A DNA stretch of 60,603 nt, filler included, from Sandaracinaceae bacterium (GCA_947483975.1; 4 parts of 4 records of this genome joined end to end with filler, not necessarily neighbours in it); one strand, 5' to 3'; positions 48,001 through 54,000 are shown, numbered from the whole stretch's first letter. Numbers: made by a program.

Positions 48001-51000
48001 AGCAGGGAGCCTCCAGCGGGCTCCTGCGGCAAGCCGAGCTCACCCGCCATGGCCAGCGCGGCGGTCACGGCGACGTGCTCGACGGCCCCGAGCGAGAGGA
48101 GCTCCGTCCGCTCCGAGGCGCGTAGCCAGCTCACGAGCGGCGCGTCCGAGTGCAGCACGGCCCGTCGCCCCGCGTCGTCCCAACCCTCTCCACGTTCCTG
48201 CCCGCGGCTGTGCGCGAAGGCAAAGACGCAGTCGACGTGGAAGCTCGCGCGCAGCAGGCGAATCACTCGCGCGACGACGTCGTCCTCGGCGTCGCTCGGC
48301 GATGCGCTCAGCGCGAACTCGGCGAGCGCGCGCGTGTTCGAGAGCTCTTCGTCTAGCTCCTTGCGCGAACGGAAGAGGCGCTGCTCCGTCCGCACGAGGA
48401 CCTTCAGTTGCTCGTCGAGCGCTCGATTCTCTTCGCGGAGTCGCGCGAGCTCGTCATCGCCGCTCATCGTGTCGGGGGCGTCTCGTACACCGCGCAGAGC
48501 GCCACGGAGTAGTTGTGGAAGAACGGGACTCCATCGACGGGCGCGATCTCGCCGTACGTGTGCACGCCAATCCAGGGGATATCTGCTCCCAAGATCGTCT
48601 GCAGCGGCTCGATCAGCTCGCTCGCCGCGAGCTCCCCGAAGAGGATCCGCCCGCGCCCTGCACAGTCGAATTGCAGCACGAACGCGGGAGTCTGCCCCGG
48701 TGCGGCTTGCCTCAGCGCCGCTGCGCATTCGGTCCCGCTGCCGCGGATCAGCTCCCCGTCTCGGCGAGTCACGCGCACCCTCGTGCCGGTCTCGATGCCG
48801 CCTCCCGGGAAGAACAACGCCCCGTTCTCCTTGTCGAGGACCATCGGAGTGCGAATCACATATCGCGGAGTGTCGCTCGAGAGCATGCGTCGGATATCGA
48901 CTCCGATGCAGAGGTAGATGATCCCCTCCGCGGTCAGGTCCTCCGGGTCGCCGTCCAGGTACTCCTTGAAGACCTCCCACGCGGGGAGCCCATCGATCGT
49001 GAAGACCCAGCCGTCCTGCGCGCGCGTGACGACGCGGTCGAGGCCGACGGTGGTGCAGCCGTGGCTCACGCCGACGTGCAGCGTCGCCGCGCCCCGGAGG
49101 ACGAAGCCCGCGACCGCATCGGAGACCACGCGCTCGTCGAGGTACTGGTGCGTCTTCTCGAAGAGCATCGCGTCGCCCGCGGAGCCCCCGACGATCGGCA
49201 CGCTCCTCGGCAGCTCCGCCGCGAGCCCGTCGATCAGCGCGCTCGCGTTGCCTCGAATGCCGTCCGGCAGGATGACGACGCACACCGGAGCTGCGCCGTC
49301 GACGGGGCCGCACAGCGTCGCGATGGTGCGCCCCGCCCCCGCGGGATCCGCGTGATAGCCCTCGACCAGGAATGGCTCGAAGCGCACTGAGTCGCTGCTC
49401 ACCGCGAGCACGGCGACGGCGAATTCGACCTCGTGTGTCGCGCTCCCCCCGATGACGCCTTCCCCAGAGCACCCCGAGAGGCGCGCGCCCGGGAGCACGC
49501 CAGCAATCGCCGCGAGCACCTCCGCCTGCGGATATGCCCCCGTCGCGAAGACGAGCGCGAACGTCGCCGCGTGGTCGCCGAGTGAGCGAGATGCCGCCTC
49601 GGCGGCTGCTCGGCCTGCCTCGCTCGCATCTGTATGCCGACTCACGCCGACGGCTGCCCTGAGCATGTCTTCCTATTCCGCGCTAACTCGCCGCTCGACG
49701 CGGTCCCCGGGAAAGGGAGCTGGAACACCAGAATATCGCAACCGCGGCCGTGCGTCGATAGCGACGGCGGCGTGCGCGCGCGACGCGACCGCGCCCACTC
49801 GCGTCAGTCCGGCGCGAGGAGCGCCGCCGTGATGATGTTGAGCTTGTAGCGCTCCTTCGCGATCTGCTGAATCGCCGCGGCGATGTGGGGATTGTCGCGG
49901 AGGATCCGGCTGAAATCGGCCCGCTGCAGCACGAACAGATCGCACGCCCGGCGCGCGCGCACGTCGGCGGTGCGTGGCTTCGACATCAACACGCCGATCT
50001 CTCCGAAGATGTCCCCGTCGGACAGCACCTTGAGCACCTGCCCAGTGTCGCTCAGCACCTCGACCTTGCCGCGCGCGAGCAAGTAGAGCTCCTGACCGAG
50101 CTCGCCCTTGCGGATGATCAGCTCGCCCGCCGCCACCTGCTTCGAGCGCAGCGCCATGATCACCTGCTCGAGGAAGACCATGTCGCCGTCCTTGAAGAGC
50201 GGCACCTTGCGCAGCACCTCCTCGGTGACGACCTCGTGCCAGCGGCGCCCGTCCTTCGCGACGAGATCCGCGGCCGCCTTCGGCCCCCAGCTGCCGCGCG
50301 CGTAGTTCGGAAACTCCGCGGGCGTCTCCGCCCAATGGTCCATGATCGGCTGCGCGACGCGCCACGCGGCCTCGACGAGATCGCCGCGGGAGAAGAGCGT
50401 CGCGTCCCCGTGCGAGCACGCGTAGAGCATCACCTCGTAGCCCGTGTAGCGCGACGCCTTGAACGCGTCGCCGTACGCGAACTTCATGTTGACCGGCTGG
50501 AGCCTCATCGTCGGCCCGGGGATCTTCGCCTGGAACTGAATCTCGATGCCCTGATACGGCTGAATGTGGAAGATCAGCCGATTCGCGTTGAGGGCGGGCA
50601 CCGCCGTCCCGCGAAAGAGCACCTCGGGTGCCTTCTTGAACTCGACGATGATCTCCGTGCCGCGCTTCCACAGCGCCTTGCCGGAGCGCAGGTAGATGGG
50701 CACTCCCTCCCACCGCCAATTGTCGATGTGGAGGCGCGCCGCAGCGTAGGTCTCCGTCTTGGACGCCGGATTGACGTCCTTCTCCTCACGATAGCCGGGC
50801 TTGAGTGGGTTGCCCTTGTCGTCGACGGAAGGGCCGTATTGGCCGCGCACGACGAAGCGCTCGACCTCTTCCGCCGAATACGCGCGGACCGACTCGAGCA
50901 GCTTCGCCTTCTCGTTGCGGATCGCGTCAGGCGCGAACGAGCCGGGGACCTCCATGCACAGATACGCGAGCATCTGGAACATGTGATTCTGCATCATGTC

Positions 51001-54000
51001 GCGGAGCACCCCGGAGGAGTCGTAGTAGCCAGCGCGTCCGCCGACGTCGACCGCTTCGGAGACGTTGAACTGGATGTTGTCGATGTAGTTCTTGTTCCAG
51101 AGCGGCTCGAACATCCCGTTCGAGAAGCGGAACGCGAGCAGGTTCTGGACGGTCTCTTTTCCGAGGTAGTGATCGACTCGGTAGATCTGGTCTTCACGCC
51201 AGTTGGCGAGCACGTCCTCGTTCAGCTTCAGCGCGGACGCGAGATCGGTGCCGAAAGGCTTCTCGACGATGATGCGCTTCCAGCCGTCGCCGTCCTTGAA
51301 GCCGCTCTGATGCAGGTTGTCGCAGAGCAGTCCGAAGAAGCGCGGCGCCGTCGCGAAGTAGAAGAGCACGTTGCCCTCCGCCGCGTACTCCGCGTCGAGT
51401 CGCTTGACCTCGCCCTTGAGCGTCTCGAACACGCCCAAGTCGCTGAACCCGCCTTGCACGTAGTGAAAGCGGCTCACGAGGTCGTCCCAGACGTCCTGCT
51501 CGAACTCGCCGCGCGTGTGAAAGGCCTTGATGTCTTCGCTCATCCGCGCCCGAAAGGACTCGGTCGTCAGGGCGTCCATCGCCGTCCCGAGCAGCGCGAA
51601 GCCCTTCGAGAGCAGCCCGTCGCAGGCGAGGTTGTAGAGCGCGGGCACGAGCAGGCGCTTGGTGAGGTCGCCTGACGCACCGAAGATCAGCATCACGTGC
51701 GGCGCGCACGACGGACTCGCCTCAGGCGCGTCGGCGCCGAGCGTGCGGAGGACTTGAGCGGCGGGGGCGTCGGCGGTCATGGGGCGGAGTTCCTTCTCGT
51801 CAGCGACACGGGGCACCGGGCACGGGACACGAGGCACGAACCGTCAACGTCGGCGCTTCTTCGCGAACAACACCCCGGCGAGCACGACGAGTCCGGCGAC
51901 GGCGCCGGCGCCGAGCACCATCCAGAACGACCTCGCCGCGACGACTCCCTCCGGCGGATTGTTCATGCCGAAGACCGCGACGAGCGTCGCGAGCGGAAAG
52001 AAGAACGCGACGAGGCGATTGAGCGTGCGCGCCTCGAGCGTCGCCTCGAGCGCGAGTCGAGCCTGCTCCTCGGAGCTACGCGCCAGCGAGAACTCCATGC
52101 CCGCTCGCGCGTCGTTCGCGACGAGATCCACCGCGCGCTCGACGTCTGCGGCGCGGTCGCGCGCGTTGATCAGCGCGTGCTCGTCGGGCTCCGCGTTCCG
52201 TCCGGCGTCGATCGCCGCGAGCAGGTGTCGGCTCGAGCGCAGCAGCGGATTGACCCAGCGCAGCACCGCGAAGTAGTCGGCAGGTGTCGACGCGCTCTCC
52301 ACCTGCTGATCGAGCGCGTGAATGCTCTTCGCGTACGAGTCGAGGTGCGCCTCGAGCGCCGCGAGTCCGCCGGCCTCCGGGCTGCTCTGCCACTCGCCGT
52401 CGGGCGCGCGCCAGAAGAACGCGCCGTGCCGCACCTCGTCGTCGTCGGGAGTCGGCGTGCGGTGCAGGACGAGCAGCAGGTGTCCCTCCGCGCTGATCGC
52501 GCGCTGACGCCCGGCGGCATCTCCGAGGCGCTTGGTCACCGCCTCGGGGAGCACCCAGCTTGTCGGGAGAAACGAGCGACCTTCGTTCGGCATCGGGCCC
52601 GAGTCTAGGTGGATGCGCGCCGCGCGTCACCGTCCGTCGCTGCGTGCCGCGCGATCGGCGCCGTGCGCTCAGCCGCTCAGCCGCTCAGCCGCTCAGCCGC
52701 TCAGCCGCTCAGCCGCTCAGCCGCTCAGCCGCTCAGCCCCTCGCGCACCCAGACCGTCCACTCGCCCCGCTTCTCGTGCGCGACGACCCAGCCCGCGCCA
52801 GGCCCGGTGTAGTCGGAGCCGATCGAAAGCGCGAGCGCGTCCTTGCCGTGCGCGTCCTGCACGATCCCGGCGAAGCCCGAGTGCGCGTCGCAGAGGTCGG
52901 TCCACTCCGACGCGGCGACGATGCCCGCGCGCTGCCGAGCGGCGATCAGCGCGGCGATCTCCTCGCGCATCCCCCAGTCGAAGCAGTCGGGCCAATAGAC
53001 CGAGGGCGTGCCCGGCATCGAGAGCACGAACGCATAAGCGCTCGACTTGAAGTGCGGCGGACACTCCCAGTGTCGCTGCCCGCTGCCCGCGGCACAGGAG
53101 GGAGAAGCGCCGGTGTCGTGGTTGTCCACGTAGGTGACCGCGACCTCGCGGTCGCCGCGTCGTCGGCTCGCGTTGAGGCCGAGTCGCAGGTTGCGTGGGT
53201 CCGCCGTCTGGACCTGCTTCTTCAGCAGGACGTCGTAGGCGCAGCTGCGCGTGTCGCACGCCCAGCCGACGATGCGCGCTCGCTCGTGCGTGCCATAGCG
53301 CTCGATCATCGGATCATCGGGTCGCGTCGGGTCGCCCTGCCAGTACTCGCCCATCGAGAAATACGGCGCTTTCGGGGTCTCCTCGAGGAGCGCGATGACG
53401 TCCTCGACCGAATAGCCCCAGACGAAGTCCCAGCGATATCCGTCGACGCCGCACTCCTCGAGCAGCTCGTTCATCGCGGCTCGGATGCGCGCGTGCACGA
53501 CGGGATAGTCGAGCGCGAGGTCGTTCTCGCCGCGGTCGAAGCCGCCGCCCGTGTCGTGCCCGCCGACCGCCCAACAGGGGCCCGGCCACTCCCACACATC
53601 CTCGCGCATCCTGCTCTTGTCGCGGTGGTTGATGACGACATCGACGATCACGCGCACGCCGAGCGCATGCAGCTTGGTGACCAGCGCGGTCAGCTCAGCC
53701 TTGCTGCCATAGCGGGAGTCGAGGTCGAAGTCGTGCCAGAAGTAGCCCTCCCCGCCGCCGCTCCGCTCGCCCGATTGCCACTCCGAGTCATCCCGCCAGG
53801 GCGGCGGCAAATAGACGATCGTGAAGCCGAGCGCCGCGACCTGCTCGGCCATATCCGTCAGGACTCGATACCAGGACTCCGCGCGCCCATCCATGGTGCC
53901 CGTGCCGCGGGTCTTCACGAGGTTCCAGTGAAACGCCTGCAGGATGACGTCGCCGCCGTCGCCCCGCGCGATCTCGTGGCCTGGGAGCCGATCGACGGTG

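What a model noticed while it worked through the whole genome (the two positions that open the first line are those of the whole stretch)
49804..51780. Glucose-6-phosphate dehydrogenase fused to a cyclic-nucleotide-binding domain
g01944 (658 aa) is a complete glucose-6-phosphate dehydrogenase (intact GASGDL, EKPFG and RVDHYLGKE motifs) with a C-terminal cyclic-nucleotide-binding domain that keeps the phosphate-binding cassette FGE-x6-PRTA. It is a second G6PD beside the canonical zwf (g03130, C222, in a zwf-pgl-gnd cluster). The fusion predicts direct cAMP/cGMP control of entry into the oxidative pentose-phosphate pathway, a mode of G6PD regulation not described.
Evidence so far: Pfam: G6PD_N 32-213 (9.9e-60), G6PD_C 215-515 (1.5e-112), cNMP_binding 547-630 (1.2e-20); NCBIfam TIGR00871 equivalog; motifs read from the sequence. 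Search with residues 525-658 only: 176 proteins at E<=1e-22; 118 of the 120 listed carry G6PD_C plus cNMP_binding on one chain, 59-95 percent identical in the cNMP part, from metagenome bins (Polyangiaceae, Kofleriaceae, 'Deltaproteobacteria', one Planctomycetota where named) and named only 'glucose-6-phosphate dehydrogenase'. The genome has three class III cyclases (g01866, g02096, g03853) and 15 cNMP-domain proteins, also on PP2C phosphatases, a GGDEF, an MscS channel and a PRK-type kinase (g03404). Full-text searches for the fusion: 2 papers [...]
(Added by a program. Inside this text positions count along the whole contig: they may not be those of the stretch shown here. "Call 12" and the like, gene names such as g00115 and contig names such as C1 are that model's own, and its searches are not shown. 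The text may have been shortened before it was handed on; [...] marks where a part breaks off. The agent that wrote the report below was given it as the finding of a first reader that could run no searches.)

Follow-up and report, generated by a model that had tools for sequence, protein, structure and literature searches.

The report
Glucose-6-phosphate dehydrogenase with built-in cyclic-nucleotide sensor

Summary
Window 49804-51780 (- strand) is one 658-aa ORF: a full zwf-type G6PD (residues 27-516, TIGR00871 572 bits) joined without a linker to a cNMP-binding domain (547-630). It is not an assembly artefact. Contigs from three independent studies bridge the junction without indels. 120 of 120 and 116 of 118 listed homologues carry both domains.

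Catalytic residues and the cNMP-contacting Gly-Glu and Arg-x-Ala are invariant in 107 + 87 full-length members. dN/dS of the sensor matches that of the core. The fused cores form one clade.

The sensor starts at the C-terminal surface where OpcA binds cyanobacterial G6PDH and where human G6PD holds its structural NADP+ (PMC11648896). The best reading is an allosterically cNMP-gated G6PD, probably cAMP-gated.

- In 4 of 5 further genomes checked, the fused gene is the only G6PD.
- This subclade lacks the NADP 2'-phosphate arginine (Met-Asp instead), so its coenzyme is uncertain.
- One 2014 paper mentions such a fusion in one sentence (PMC4106842).

No biochemistry exists. This is a new variant of known kinds.

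The parts
49804..51780 (-). Whole coding sequence of the G6PD-CNB fusion (658 aa plus stop codon at 49804-49806)
   Evidence: ORF and translation; domains; junction bridged by independent contigs
51791..51798 (-). Ribosome-binding-site-like GAGAAGGA, 10 nt before the ATG
   Evidence: Read from the sequence; inference only
51142..51687 (-). G6PD_N Rossmann coenzyme domain, residues 32-213, with the GASGDLTKR fingerprint (34-42) and EKPFG (173-177)
   Evidence: Pfam 3.2e-59; fingerprint residues 106-107 of 107 and EKPFG 107 of 107 in the family
51574..51579 (-). Met68-Asp69 in the beta2-alpha2 loop, at the place of the NADP 2'-phosphate arginine (L. mesenteroides R46-Q47)
   Evidence: Aligned to 1dpg 'GTARQAL'. 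Fused set of 107: position 68 is M84, T6, L5, I4, F2, V2, R2, G1, K1; position 69 is D91, E11, N4, G1. 58 unfused G6PDs: position 68 is Arg in 45, position 69 is acidic in 4
50236..51138 (-). G6PD_C beta+alpha catalytic and dimerisation domain, residues 215-515, with the catalytic His266 (QNH) and Lys368 (YLRSGK); RVDHYLGKE (201-209) lies just before it
   Evidence: Pfam 6e-112; D203, H204, Y205, K208, H266 and K368 in 107 of 107; K174, D203, H204, K208, H266 and K368 in 87 of 87
50143..50235 (-). Junction and N-terminal helices of the sensor, residues 516-546. There is no free linker. Glu516 is invariant in fused proteins only
   Evidence: E516: 107 of 107 and 87 of 87 fused, 4 of 58 unfused. 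Mean conservation 0.83. Helices 520-524 and 534-543 in the model. Query R513 and E516 align to Synechocystis R505 and R508, which contact OpcA (PMC11648896)
49891..50142 (-). cNMP_binding beta-roll, residues 547-630
   Evidence: Pfam 2.5e-20; closest solved chains are PKA-R, PKG and SthK at E 1e-28 to 1e-30; pLDDT 81-93
49954..50007 (-). Phosphate-binding cassette FGEIGVLMSKPRTADVRA, residues 592-609
   Evidence: G593, E594, R603 and A605 in 107 of 107; G593, E594 and R603 in 87 of 87 and A605 in 86 of 87; position 604 is T70, N26, V5, S3, I3
49807..49890 (-). C-helix (lid) and tail, residues 631-658, with invariant Arg644
   Evidence: Helix 631-645; R644 in 107 of 107 and 87 of 87. The lid role is an inference from other CNB domains

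Best explanation
This is a catalytically competent glucose-6-phosphate dehydrogenase whose activity is set directly by a cyclic nucleotide, most likely cAMP.

Proposed mechanism:
1. The nucleotide binds the C-terminal CNB domain.
2. The CNB domain is welded, with no linker, to the last residues of the G6PD beta+alpha domain. In Synechocystis this surface is the docking site of the allosteric activator OpcA, and in human G6PD it is the structural-NADP+ site.
3. Ligand binding at the phosphate-binding cassette should move the N-terminal helices and the C-helix lid of the CNB domain.
4. Through the rigid junction (invariant W514, E516) this movement should reshape the C-terminal loops and the dimer or tetramer interface.
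5. That in turn should alter the substrate site some 25 A away.

By analogy with PKA, PKG, Epac and the mycobacterial cAMP-dependent acetyltransferase, the ligand-free sensor would hold the enzyme in a low-activity state and cAMP would release it.

What is shown: the fusion, the intact residues of both halves, purifying selection on both, a single clade, and cyclases in the genome.

What is inferred: ligand binding, the identity of the ligand, the coupling path, and the direction of the effect.
For: One ORF with both domains over their curated cut-offs.

The junction is bridged without indels by contigs of three independent studies.

All 120 listed homologues of residues 500-658, and 116 of 118 homologues of a distant member, carry G6PD_C plus cNMP_binding.

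Conservation:
- G6PD catalytic residues are invariant in 107 and 87 full-length sequences.
- The cNMP contacts G593, E594 and R603 are invariant in both sets. A605 is 107 of 107 and 86 of 87.
- R644 in the C-helix is invariant.
- dN/dS of residues 517-658 is 0.06-0.18 in six close pairs, against 0.06-0.18 for the core.

The sensor is closest to true cAMP/cGMP receptors: PKA-R, PKG and SthK at E 1e-28 to 1e-30.

The AlphaFold2 model gives a canonical CNB fold at pLDDT 81-93 that starts four residues after the core ends.

E516 at the junction is Glu in 194 of 194 fused proteins and in 4 of 58 unfused ones.

[quoted passage not shown] This changes the active site 26-28 A away, and the surface equals the human structural-NADP+ site. 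R505 and R508 align to query R513 and E516.

The fused cores form one clade, SH-aLRT 100.

The fused gene is the only G6PD_C hit in 4 of 5 further genomes, so it must be an active enzyme there.

The genome has three class III cyclases with Lys plus Thr or Asp at the specificity places, and 14 other CNB proteins.

gnd lies upstream on the same strand in L003, L005 and L006.
Against: - There are no biochemical data for any member.
- No expression data were found.
- The orientation of the sensor on the core is unknown. The model gives no pair-error map or coordinates, and its pTM is only 0.75, with low confidence in 418-446.
- The gene neighbourhood is not conserved, so context gives no pathway clue beyond gnd in three closely related loci.
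- Position 604 after the cassette arginine varies (T70, N26, V5, S3, I3), so ligand preference may differ between members.
- The adenylate-cyclase assignment rests on a recalled motif rule, and the genome is 81% complete.
- The direction of regulation is pure analogy.
Confidence: 0.68

Rival explanations
1. The CNB domain no longer senses a nucleotide. It serves as a built-in structural clamp that stabilises the C-terminal surface or the tetramer. It would replace OpcA or structural NADP+ constitutively.
For: The domain sits at the surface that OpcA and structural NADP+ stabilise in other G6PDs. No OpcA was found in this genome, which is 81% complete. In four genomes the fused gene is the only G6PD, so it must work under all conditions.
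Against: G593, E594 and R603, which serve only to hold the ribose-cyclic-phosphate, are invariant in 194 of 194 sequences; A605 is kept in 193 of 194, as is the C-helix Arg644 in 194 of 194. A purely structural module would not need them. The closest relatives of the domain are ligand-gated CNB domains.
Confidence: 0.12
2. The domain binds a small molecule other than cAMP or cGMP, as some CAP/FNR-family effector domains do. It would report a metabolic state rather than a second messenger.
For: The CAP-family fold is used for many ligands (general knowledge). Position 604 varies between Thr, Asn, Val, Ser and Ile. A G6PD with a C-terminal CBS pair (P0231) shows that this terminus recruits other metabolite sensors.
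Against: The Gly-Glu and Arg-x-Ala signature of cyclic-phosphate binding is intact and invariant. The best sequence matches are cAMP/cGMP-binding domains of kinases and channels. CRP scores far lower (42 bits against a cut-off of 266 in NCBIfam).
Confidence: 0.08
3. The nucleotide does not tune catalysis. It controls something else: localisation, partner binding or turnover of the enzyme.
For: No docking of sensor on core could be shown here. Other CNB proteins of this genome are fused to very different outputs.
Against: There is no free linker. The junction has an invariant Glu found almost only in fused proteins, and conservation of 517-546 is 0.83. These argue for a fixed intramolecular contact. 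No partner gene is conserved next to the gene.
Confidence: 0.08
4. The fusion is an artefact: a mis-assembly, or a frameshift that joins two genes.
For: The genome is a fragmented bin of 524 contigs, and the window itself is four contigs joined.
Against: Independent contigs from three other studies span the junction with no indel. More than 200 distinct protein clusters from many assemblies have the same architecture. In one genome the gene lies on a 753-kb contig together with rpoB.
Confidence: 0.01

Closest known systems
Synechocystis G6PDH with its allosteric partner OpcA (PDB 9emm/9emn; PMC11648896)
   Same: It is the closest solved G6PD (E 5e-131, 42% identity). It is regulated through the C-terminal loops and C terminus. 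That is the surface where the CNB domain begins here.
   Different: OpcA is a separate redox-sensing protein; here the regulator is fused and belongs to the cNMP-binding family. No OpcA gene was found in this genome.
Canonical bacterial Zwf (TIGR00871), e.g. L. mesenteroides 1dpg, Zymomonas 7xhl, and this genome's own zwf on C222
   Same: Same fold and all catalytic motifs.
   Different: It has about 140 extra C-terminal residues forming a CNB domain. Identity to the genome's own zwf is 42.5%. The 2'-phosphate Arg is replaced by Met-Asp. The nearest unfused representatives are at most 49-54% identical.
Mycobacterial cAMP-dependent protein acetyltransferase (Pat/Rv0998 type; NCBIfam NF058543)
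   Same: It is a bacterial enzyme fused to a CNB domain. The sensor part gives a weak match here (8.1e-11). From recall (only the search listing of the review PMC8556138 was seen), cAMP relieves autoinhibition of the enzyme domain.
   Different: The output is a GNAT acetyltransferase, not a central-metabolism dehydrogenase. The CNB domain is N-terminal there and C-terminal here.
Eukaryotic PKA-R and PKG, and bacterial cyclic-nucleotide-gated channels (SthK)
   Same: They give the best sequence matches for residues 517-658 (E 1e-28 to 1e-30), with the same cassette Gly-Glu ... Arg-Thr-Ala.
   Different: Their outputs are kinases or ion channels.
Other G6PD fusions: G6PD-6PGL (P0135 here; Plasmodium type) and G6PD-CBS (P0231)
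   Same: Extra modules are added to the G6PD C terminus.
   Different: 6PGL is the next enzyme of the pathway, not a sensor. CBS pairs sense adenosyl ligands. Neither G6PD falls in the fused clade in the tree.
Trypanosoma brucei PGK-like protein with a cNMP-binding domain (PMC4106842)
   Same: A sugar-metabolism enzyme fold fused to a CNB domain. The same paper mentions the bacterial G6PD-CNB sequence UniProt Q0F2T2.
   Different: That PGK domain is described as catalytically degenerate, whereas here all catalytic residues are kept.

Membership tests
Glucose-6-phosphate dehydrogenase (zwf, TIGR00871 / PF00479 + PF02781) | Score over the curated cut-offs of the family models across both domains | tested here: met
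   TIGR00871 572.2 bits against 400.6; G6PD_N 201 against 22.1; G6PD_C 374 against 27
Glucose-6-phosphate dehydrogenase (zwf, TIGR00871 / PF00479 + PF02781) | Dinucleotide fingerprint GxxGDLx(K/R)(K/R) and EKPxG | tested here: met
   GASGDLTKR 34-42 and EKPFG 173-177; 106-107 of 107 and 107 of 107 in the family
Glucose-6-phosphate dehydrogenase (zwf, TIGR00871 / PF00479 + PF02781) | Substrate and catalytic residues: R(I/V)DHYLGKE (Asp-His, Lys), the general-base His in QNH, and Lys in R(S/T)GK | tested here: met
   D203, H204, Y205, K208, H266 and K368 in 107 of 107; K174, D203, H204, K208, H266 and K368 in 87 of 87. The residue roles are recalled from the L. mesenteroides and human literature
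Glucose-6-phosphate dehydrogenase (zwf, TIGR00871 / PF00479 + PF02781) | Arginine binding the 2'-phosphate of NADP+ (Lm R46 / Ec R50). It marks NADP-using members and does not define the family | tested here: not met
   Met68-Asp69 aligns to Lm R46-Q47; Arg or Lys in 3 of 107 of this subclade; Arg in 38 of 87 of the second subclade. PMC4807051 (section 14 read) shows that actinobacterial G6PDHs also lack it
Glucose-6-phosphate dehydrogenase (zwf, TIGR00871 / PF00479 + PF02781) | Oxidation of glucose 6-phosphate with NAD(P)+ | not testable with these tools
   Needs an enzyme assay. Indirect support: it is the only G6PD_C hit in G217, G242, G327 and G229
Cyclic-nucleotide-binding domain (PF00027, CAP-family effector domain) | Score over the Pfam gathering cut-off | tested here: met
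   72.7 bits against 27.5, residues 547-630
Cyclic-nucleotide-binding domain (PF00027, CAP-family effector domain) | Phosphate-binding cassette: Gly-Glu (ribose 2'-OH) and Arg-(Thr/Ser)-Ala (cyclic phosphate) | tested here: met
   FGEIGVLMSKPRTA; G593, E594 and R603 in 194 of 194, A605 in 193 of 194
Cyclic-nucleotide-binding domain (PF00027, CAP-family effector domain) | Eight-stranded beta-roll with a short cassette helix, flanked by N-terminal helices and the B and C helices | tested here: met
   The AlphaFold2 secondary structure shows helices 520-524 and 534-543, seven strands 545-619 with helix 594-599, and helices 620-629 and 631-645, at pLDDT 81-93. Seven of the eight strands were called by DSSP
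Cyclic-nucleotide-binding domain (PF00027, CAP-family effector domain) | Binding of cAMP or cGMP | not testable with these tools
   Needs ITC, DSF or a structure with ligand
OpcA-dependent G6PDH (cyanobacterial/actinobacterial type) | A partner OpcA gene (PF10128) in the genome | tested here: not met
   0 matches in G000, which is 81% complete; the control rang in 3 of 14 named genomes

The most novel reading that the evidence does not exclude
G6PD has one C-terminal allosteric hot spot that evolution has filled at least three times: with structural NADP+ in animals, with OpcA in cyanobacteria, and here with a fused cAMP receptor. A CBS pair in P0231 would be a fourth case.

In the window's subclade the enzyme has also lost the NADP 2'-phosphate arginine and gained an acidic residue. 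On this reading it is a cAMP-gated, NAD+-linked catabolic G6PD. A starvation signal would open glucose-6-phosphate oxidation for energy, alongside a constitutive NADP+-linked zwf-pgl-gnd route.
Probability: 0.25. Interest if true: 0.78.

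Novelty: new variant of a known kind. Interest (0 to 1): 0.6.

Why it matters
G6PD controls entry into the oxidative pentose-phosphate and Entner-Doudoroff routes. It is among the most studied enzymes, and its known controls are product inhibition, redox partners (OpcA, thioredoxin), structural NADP+ and phosphorylation.

A G6PD that carries its own second-messenger receptor would be the first case of direct cyclic-nucleotide gating of a central carbon dehydrogenase. 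It would also be a natural one-chain model for how the C-terminal allosteric site talks to the active site. That question bears on human G6PD deficiency variants at the structural-NADP+ site.

For bacterial signalling, it would add a post-translational metabolic output to cAMP, beside CRP-type transcription control. The protein could also serve as a scaffold for cAMP-switchable NAD(P)H production.

The test is cheap: one recombinant protein, one truncation and two point mutants.

Tried and rejected
- Complex prediction with core (21-516) against sensor (517-658), both as alignments: no answer, score 0.00. It counts neither for nor against docking.
- The look-up of sequencing runs listed no RNA holder, so nothing can be said on expression.
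- The promoter and terminator scan of 49400-52700 found none. The consensus is sigma-70/E. coli-like and the DNA is 66-70% G+C, so this is uninformative.
- Conserved gene neighbourhood. The window's neighbours are an alpha-amylase-like gene, a CorA-like gene, a FIST gene, a hybrid histidine kinase and a trypsin-like peptidase. None recur next to the 17 related loci. Only gnd recurs, in three closely related loci. An operon-based reading was dropped.
- Synteny with the same-genus genome G400. Only the CorA-like gene and one unknown gene match within 40 kb. Whether the gene was inserted in G000 or lost in G400 cannot be told.
- Mis-binning of contig C101 was considered and set aside. The CorA-like gene is 76% identical in DNA to G400, and G000 and G400 share 92-98% identical RpoB.
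- RpoB of G401, G402, G403 and G405 could not be found. Their distance to G000 was instead read from shared order membership (G439 is the same place as G010).
- Foldseek against the PDB matched the core only. No solved chain covers both domains.
- The search of earlier findings was not open.
- NAD+ specificity was considered as a firm claim and downgraded. PMC4807051 shows that NADP-using lineages can lack the arginine. Four genomes have a fused gene as their only G6PD; of these only G217's coenzyme loop was read, and it is the Met-Asp form.

Full report
**What is in the sequence**

The window is four contigs of one genome bin joined by runs of N. The finding lies on the last contig, C101, at window 45576-60603.

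On the minus strand an open frame runs 49804..51837. The ATG at 51780 has an AAGGA 10 nt upstream and gives 658 aa. The consensus N terminus of 110 aligned homologues fits this start.

- Pfam finds G6PD_N at 32-213 (3.2e-59), G6PD_C at 215-515 (6e-112) and cNMP_binding at 547-630 (2.5e-20).
- NCBIfam TIGR00871 (zwf, equivalog) scores 572 bits against a cut-off of 400.6.

**Is the fusion real?**

Near-identical DNA occurs in lake and freshwater metagenome runs of ten studies. Contigs from runs of three studies other than the possible source were laid on 49600-52000.
- X6 covers 49600-50403 with no difference.
- X8 covers 50098-50341.
- One 6111-base contig of X11 covers the whole gene with 62 substitutions and no gap.
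- All three bridge the core/sensor junction at 50232/50233, and no inserted or deleted letters were reported.

A search with residues 500-658 gave 313 proteins at E <= 0.001. All 120 listed carry G6PD_C and cNMP_binding on one chain.

A second search, seeded from a distant member (L017), gave 118 proteins at E <= 1e-10, of which 116 carry both domains. The ESM Atlas holds three clusters (83, 59 and 65 members) with all three Pfam families in 99-100% of members.

**Are both halves functional?**

I aligned 107 full-length sequences (the query plus the 106 hits that are 600-720 aa long; 14 shorter fragments were dropped). In this alignment:
- The fingerprint GASGDL, EKPFG, R-V-D-H-Y-L-G-K-E, Q-N-H and Y-L-R-S-G-K are invariant or nearly so.
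- In the sensor, G593, E594, R603 and A605 are 107 of 107.

In a second set of 87 full-length sequences, K174, D203, H204, K208, H266, K368, G593, E594, R603, R644, W514 and E516 are 87 of 87.

Nei-Gojobori dN/dS for residues 517-658 is 0.06-0.18 in six close pairs. The core gives 0.06-0.18 in the same pairs. Synonymous rates are compressed by the strong G+C bias, so only the comparison between the two halves is meaningful.

The sensor's best matches among solved structures are cAMP/cGMP receptors: Plasmodium PKA-R (1.1e-29), PKG, and the bacterial channel SthK (2e-27).

AlphaFold2 on the 110-row alignment gives mean pLDDT 77.8 and pTM 0.75. It shows a canonical CNB topology at pLDDT 81-93. 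The weak stretches are 418-446 and the first 20 residues. Foldseek matches the core only (1dpg, 7xhl, 9emm), and no solved chain covers both parts.

**The junction**

The G6PD core ends at R512-R513-W514-H515-E516. The first sensor helix starts at 520, so there is no free linker. Residues 517-546 are as conserved as the rest of the sensor (0.83 against 0.82).

E516 is Glu in 107 of 107 and 87 of 87 fused proteins. It is Glu in only 4 of 58 unfused G6PDs, where Arg or Lys dominates.

The closest solved homologue is Synechocystis G6PDH in complex with OpcA (9emm; E 5e-131; 42% identity). I read passages of that paper, PMC11648896. It reports three things:
- This surface corresponds to the structural-NADP+ site of human G6PD.
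- Binding rearranges the substrate site 26-28 A away.

By the alignment, with the chain numbering offset I inferred from the chain length, R505 and R508 fall on query R513 and E516. The sensor therefore begins where a known allosteric regulator docks. This is the basis of the proposed coupling path. It is an inference, because I have no coordinates or error map for the model.

**Coenzyme site**

L. mesenteroides 'GTARQAL' (R46, Q47) aligns to query 'GTAMDAL' (M68, D69).

| Set | Position 68 | Position 69 |
|---|---|---|
| 107 fused sequences | M84, T6, L5, I4, F2, V2, R2, G1, K1 | D91, E11, N4, G1 |
| 58 unfused G6PDs of the tree set | Arg in 45 | acidic in 4 |
| 87 fused sequences, second subclade | Arg in 38 | not summarised |

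The genome's own canonical zwf reads 'GVARRPK'.

PMC4807051 (passages and section 14 read) shows that E. coli R50, which equals Lm R46, and K18 carry the preference for NADP+. It also shows that actinobacterial G6PDHs lack the arginine and have two aspartates after it.

The second subclade keeps Arg in 38 of 87. The loss is therefore a trait of the window's subclade, not of the fusion as such. I rate an NAD+-preferring or dual enzyme at about 35-40%.

**Ligand**

The genome has three class III cyclase genes, with the architectures FHA-GAF-cyclase, REC-REC-cyclase and DUF5939-cyclase. At the two substrate-specifying places they read K...T, K...T and K...D. By the rule I recall (Lys with Asp or Thr for ATP; Glu with Cys, Ser or Gly for GTP), all three are adenylate cyclases.

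The Thr after the cassette arginine (T604) occurs in both cAMP and cGMP receptors and does not decide the matter. cAMP is the more likely ligand, at about 60%.

Seventeen cNMP_binding matches lie in 15 open frames. The proteins include two PP2C phosphatases, a GGDEF protein, an MscS-type channel, a PRK-family kinase and four CRP-type regulators.

**Distribution and history**

- A scan of species-representative genomes found 17 fused loci, all in metagenome bins. Thirteen are labelled Polyangiaceae, Polyangiales, Myxococcales or 'Deltaproteobacteria'. One each is labelled Rhodocyclaceae, Gallionellaceae and Gemmatales, and one is a partial Polyangiaceae locus. Other labels seen are Kofleriaceae, Planctomycetota and Rokubacteria. 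The Atlas gives Planctomycetota as the commonest known phylum.
- In an even sample of the window's phylum, 11 of 401 genomes have the fusion, including G000. In a sample of the order that holds G401 and G010, 2 of 150 have it.
- The same-genus genome G400 (94% complete; RpoB 92-98% identical) lacks it and has two unfused G6PDs.
- At 50% clustering the fused core is essentially one cluster (P0122, 79% identity). The next full-length unfused proteins are at most 49% identical.
- In a tree of 87 cores, 28 fused sequences plus one fragment (P0127) form a clade with SH-aLRT 100. One origin is compatible with this, but the root was set at the midpoint only.
- G404 has RpoB only 58% identical to G000 but a fused G6PD 80% identical, on the same 753-kb contig as rpoB. 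By comparison, same-order G010 gives 72% and 75%, and same-phylum G154 gives 62% and 55%. This points to transfer between distant lineages.

**Paralogy**

G000, G010, G154 and G401-G405 have one to four unfused G6PDs beside the fused one. In G217, G242, G327 and G229 (86-94% complete) the fused gene is the only G6PD_C match. The fused protein must therefore be a working G6PD, and in some lineages it is the only one.

**Context**

The neighbours in the window are an alpha-amylase-family gene, a weak CorA-like gene, a FIST protein, a hybrid histidine kinase and a trypsin-like peptidase. They do not recur beside the homologues.

gnd lies upstream on the same strand in L003, L005 (adjacent) and L006, which are close relatives of one another.

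The X11 contig, about 97% alike over the gene, departs from the window right after the stop codon.

**Literature**

Four full-text searches were run: 'glucose-6-phosphate dehydrogenase' + 'cyclic nucleotide-binding domain' + 'fusion'; the enzyme name + 'cNMP'; 'cyclic nucleotide-binding' + 'zwf'; and 'Rv0998' + 'cyclic nucleotide' + 'autoinhibit'. None found a study of this protein.

[quoted passage not shown] I could not retrieve that entry. Subscription journals are not covered by the library.

**Verdict**

This is a real, conserved and selected fusion of two well-known modules. The best-supported mechanism is direct allosteric gating of G6PD by cAMP through the C-terminal regulatory surface (confidence 0.68 for gating; lower for the ligand, the direction and the coenzyme). 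It is a new variant of known kinds. It is already present in databases, has been mentioned once in print, and has never been tested.

Noticed in passing
protein P0231: A 630-aa G6PD with a C-terminal pair of CBS domains (Pfam 1e-26). This is another small-molecule sensor added to the same G6PD C terminus, in a lineage outside the CNB-fused clade.
   Followed up: partly
G000:C257:5267-7435 (- strand), locus L081: A 723-aa protein with an N-terminal cNMP-binding domain and a C-terminal phosphoribulokinase/uridine-kinase-family domain. It is a second metabolic-type enzyme with a cyclic-nucleotide sensor in the same genome.
   Followed up: partly
window 46614-49666 (- strand): Directly downstream of the fused gene lie a FIST N+C sensor protein (48464-49666) and a hybrid histidine kinase with HisKA, HATPase and receiver domains (about 46614-48466). 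The pair is not found beside the homologues of the fused gene.
   Followed up: partly
window 51844-52593 (- strand) and G400:C3:150558-151282: The upstream 249-aa ORF has only a weak CorA-like match (E 1e-3). Its counterpart in the same-genus genome is read in three different frames, and that genome's rpoB is also split. This suggests indel errors in that assembly rather than real pseudogenes.
   Followed up: partly
locus L012 / G404:C3 (753-kb contig): A bin labelled Rhodocyclaceae carries a fused G6PD 80% identical to the window's, on the same contig as an rpoB that is only 58% identical to the window genome's. Either the label is wrong or the gene moved between distant lineages.
   Followed up: partly
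window 49803 and downstream, against the contig of run X11: A contig about 97% identical over the whole gene departs from the window sequence immediately after the stop codon. Even near-identical copies therefore sit in different downstream contexts.
   Followed up: no
window 54801-57374 (+ strand): An 857-aa DAO + FAO_M + GCV_T + GCV_T_C protein (dimethylglycine/sarcosine-dehydrogenase type), next to an MFS transporter and a glyoxalase-family ORF.
   Followed up: no
loci L003 4473-6437 and L006 4486-6519: A DUF2330 protein sits between gnd and the fused G6PD in two related loci. Its function is unknown.
   Followed up: no
window 15109-15208, 30301-30400, 45476-45575: The window is a concatenation of four separate contigs (C98-C101) with N spacers. 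Features on different contigs are not neighbours in the genome.
   Followed up: yes
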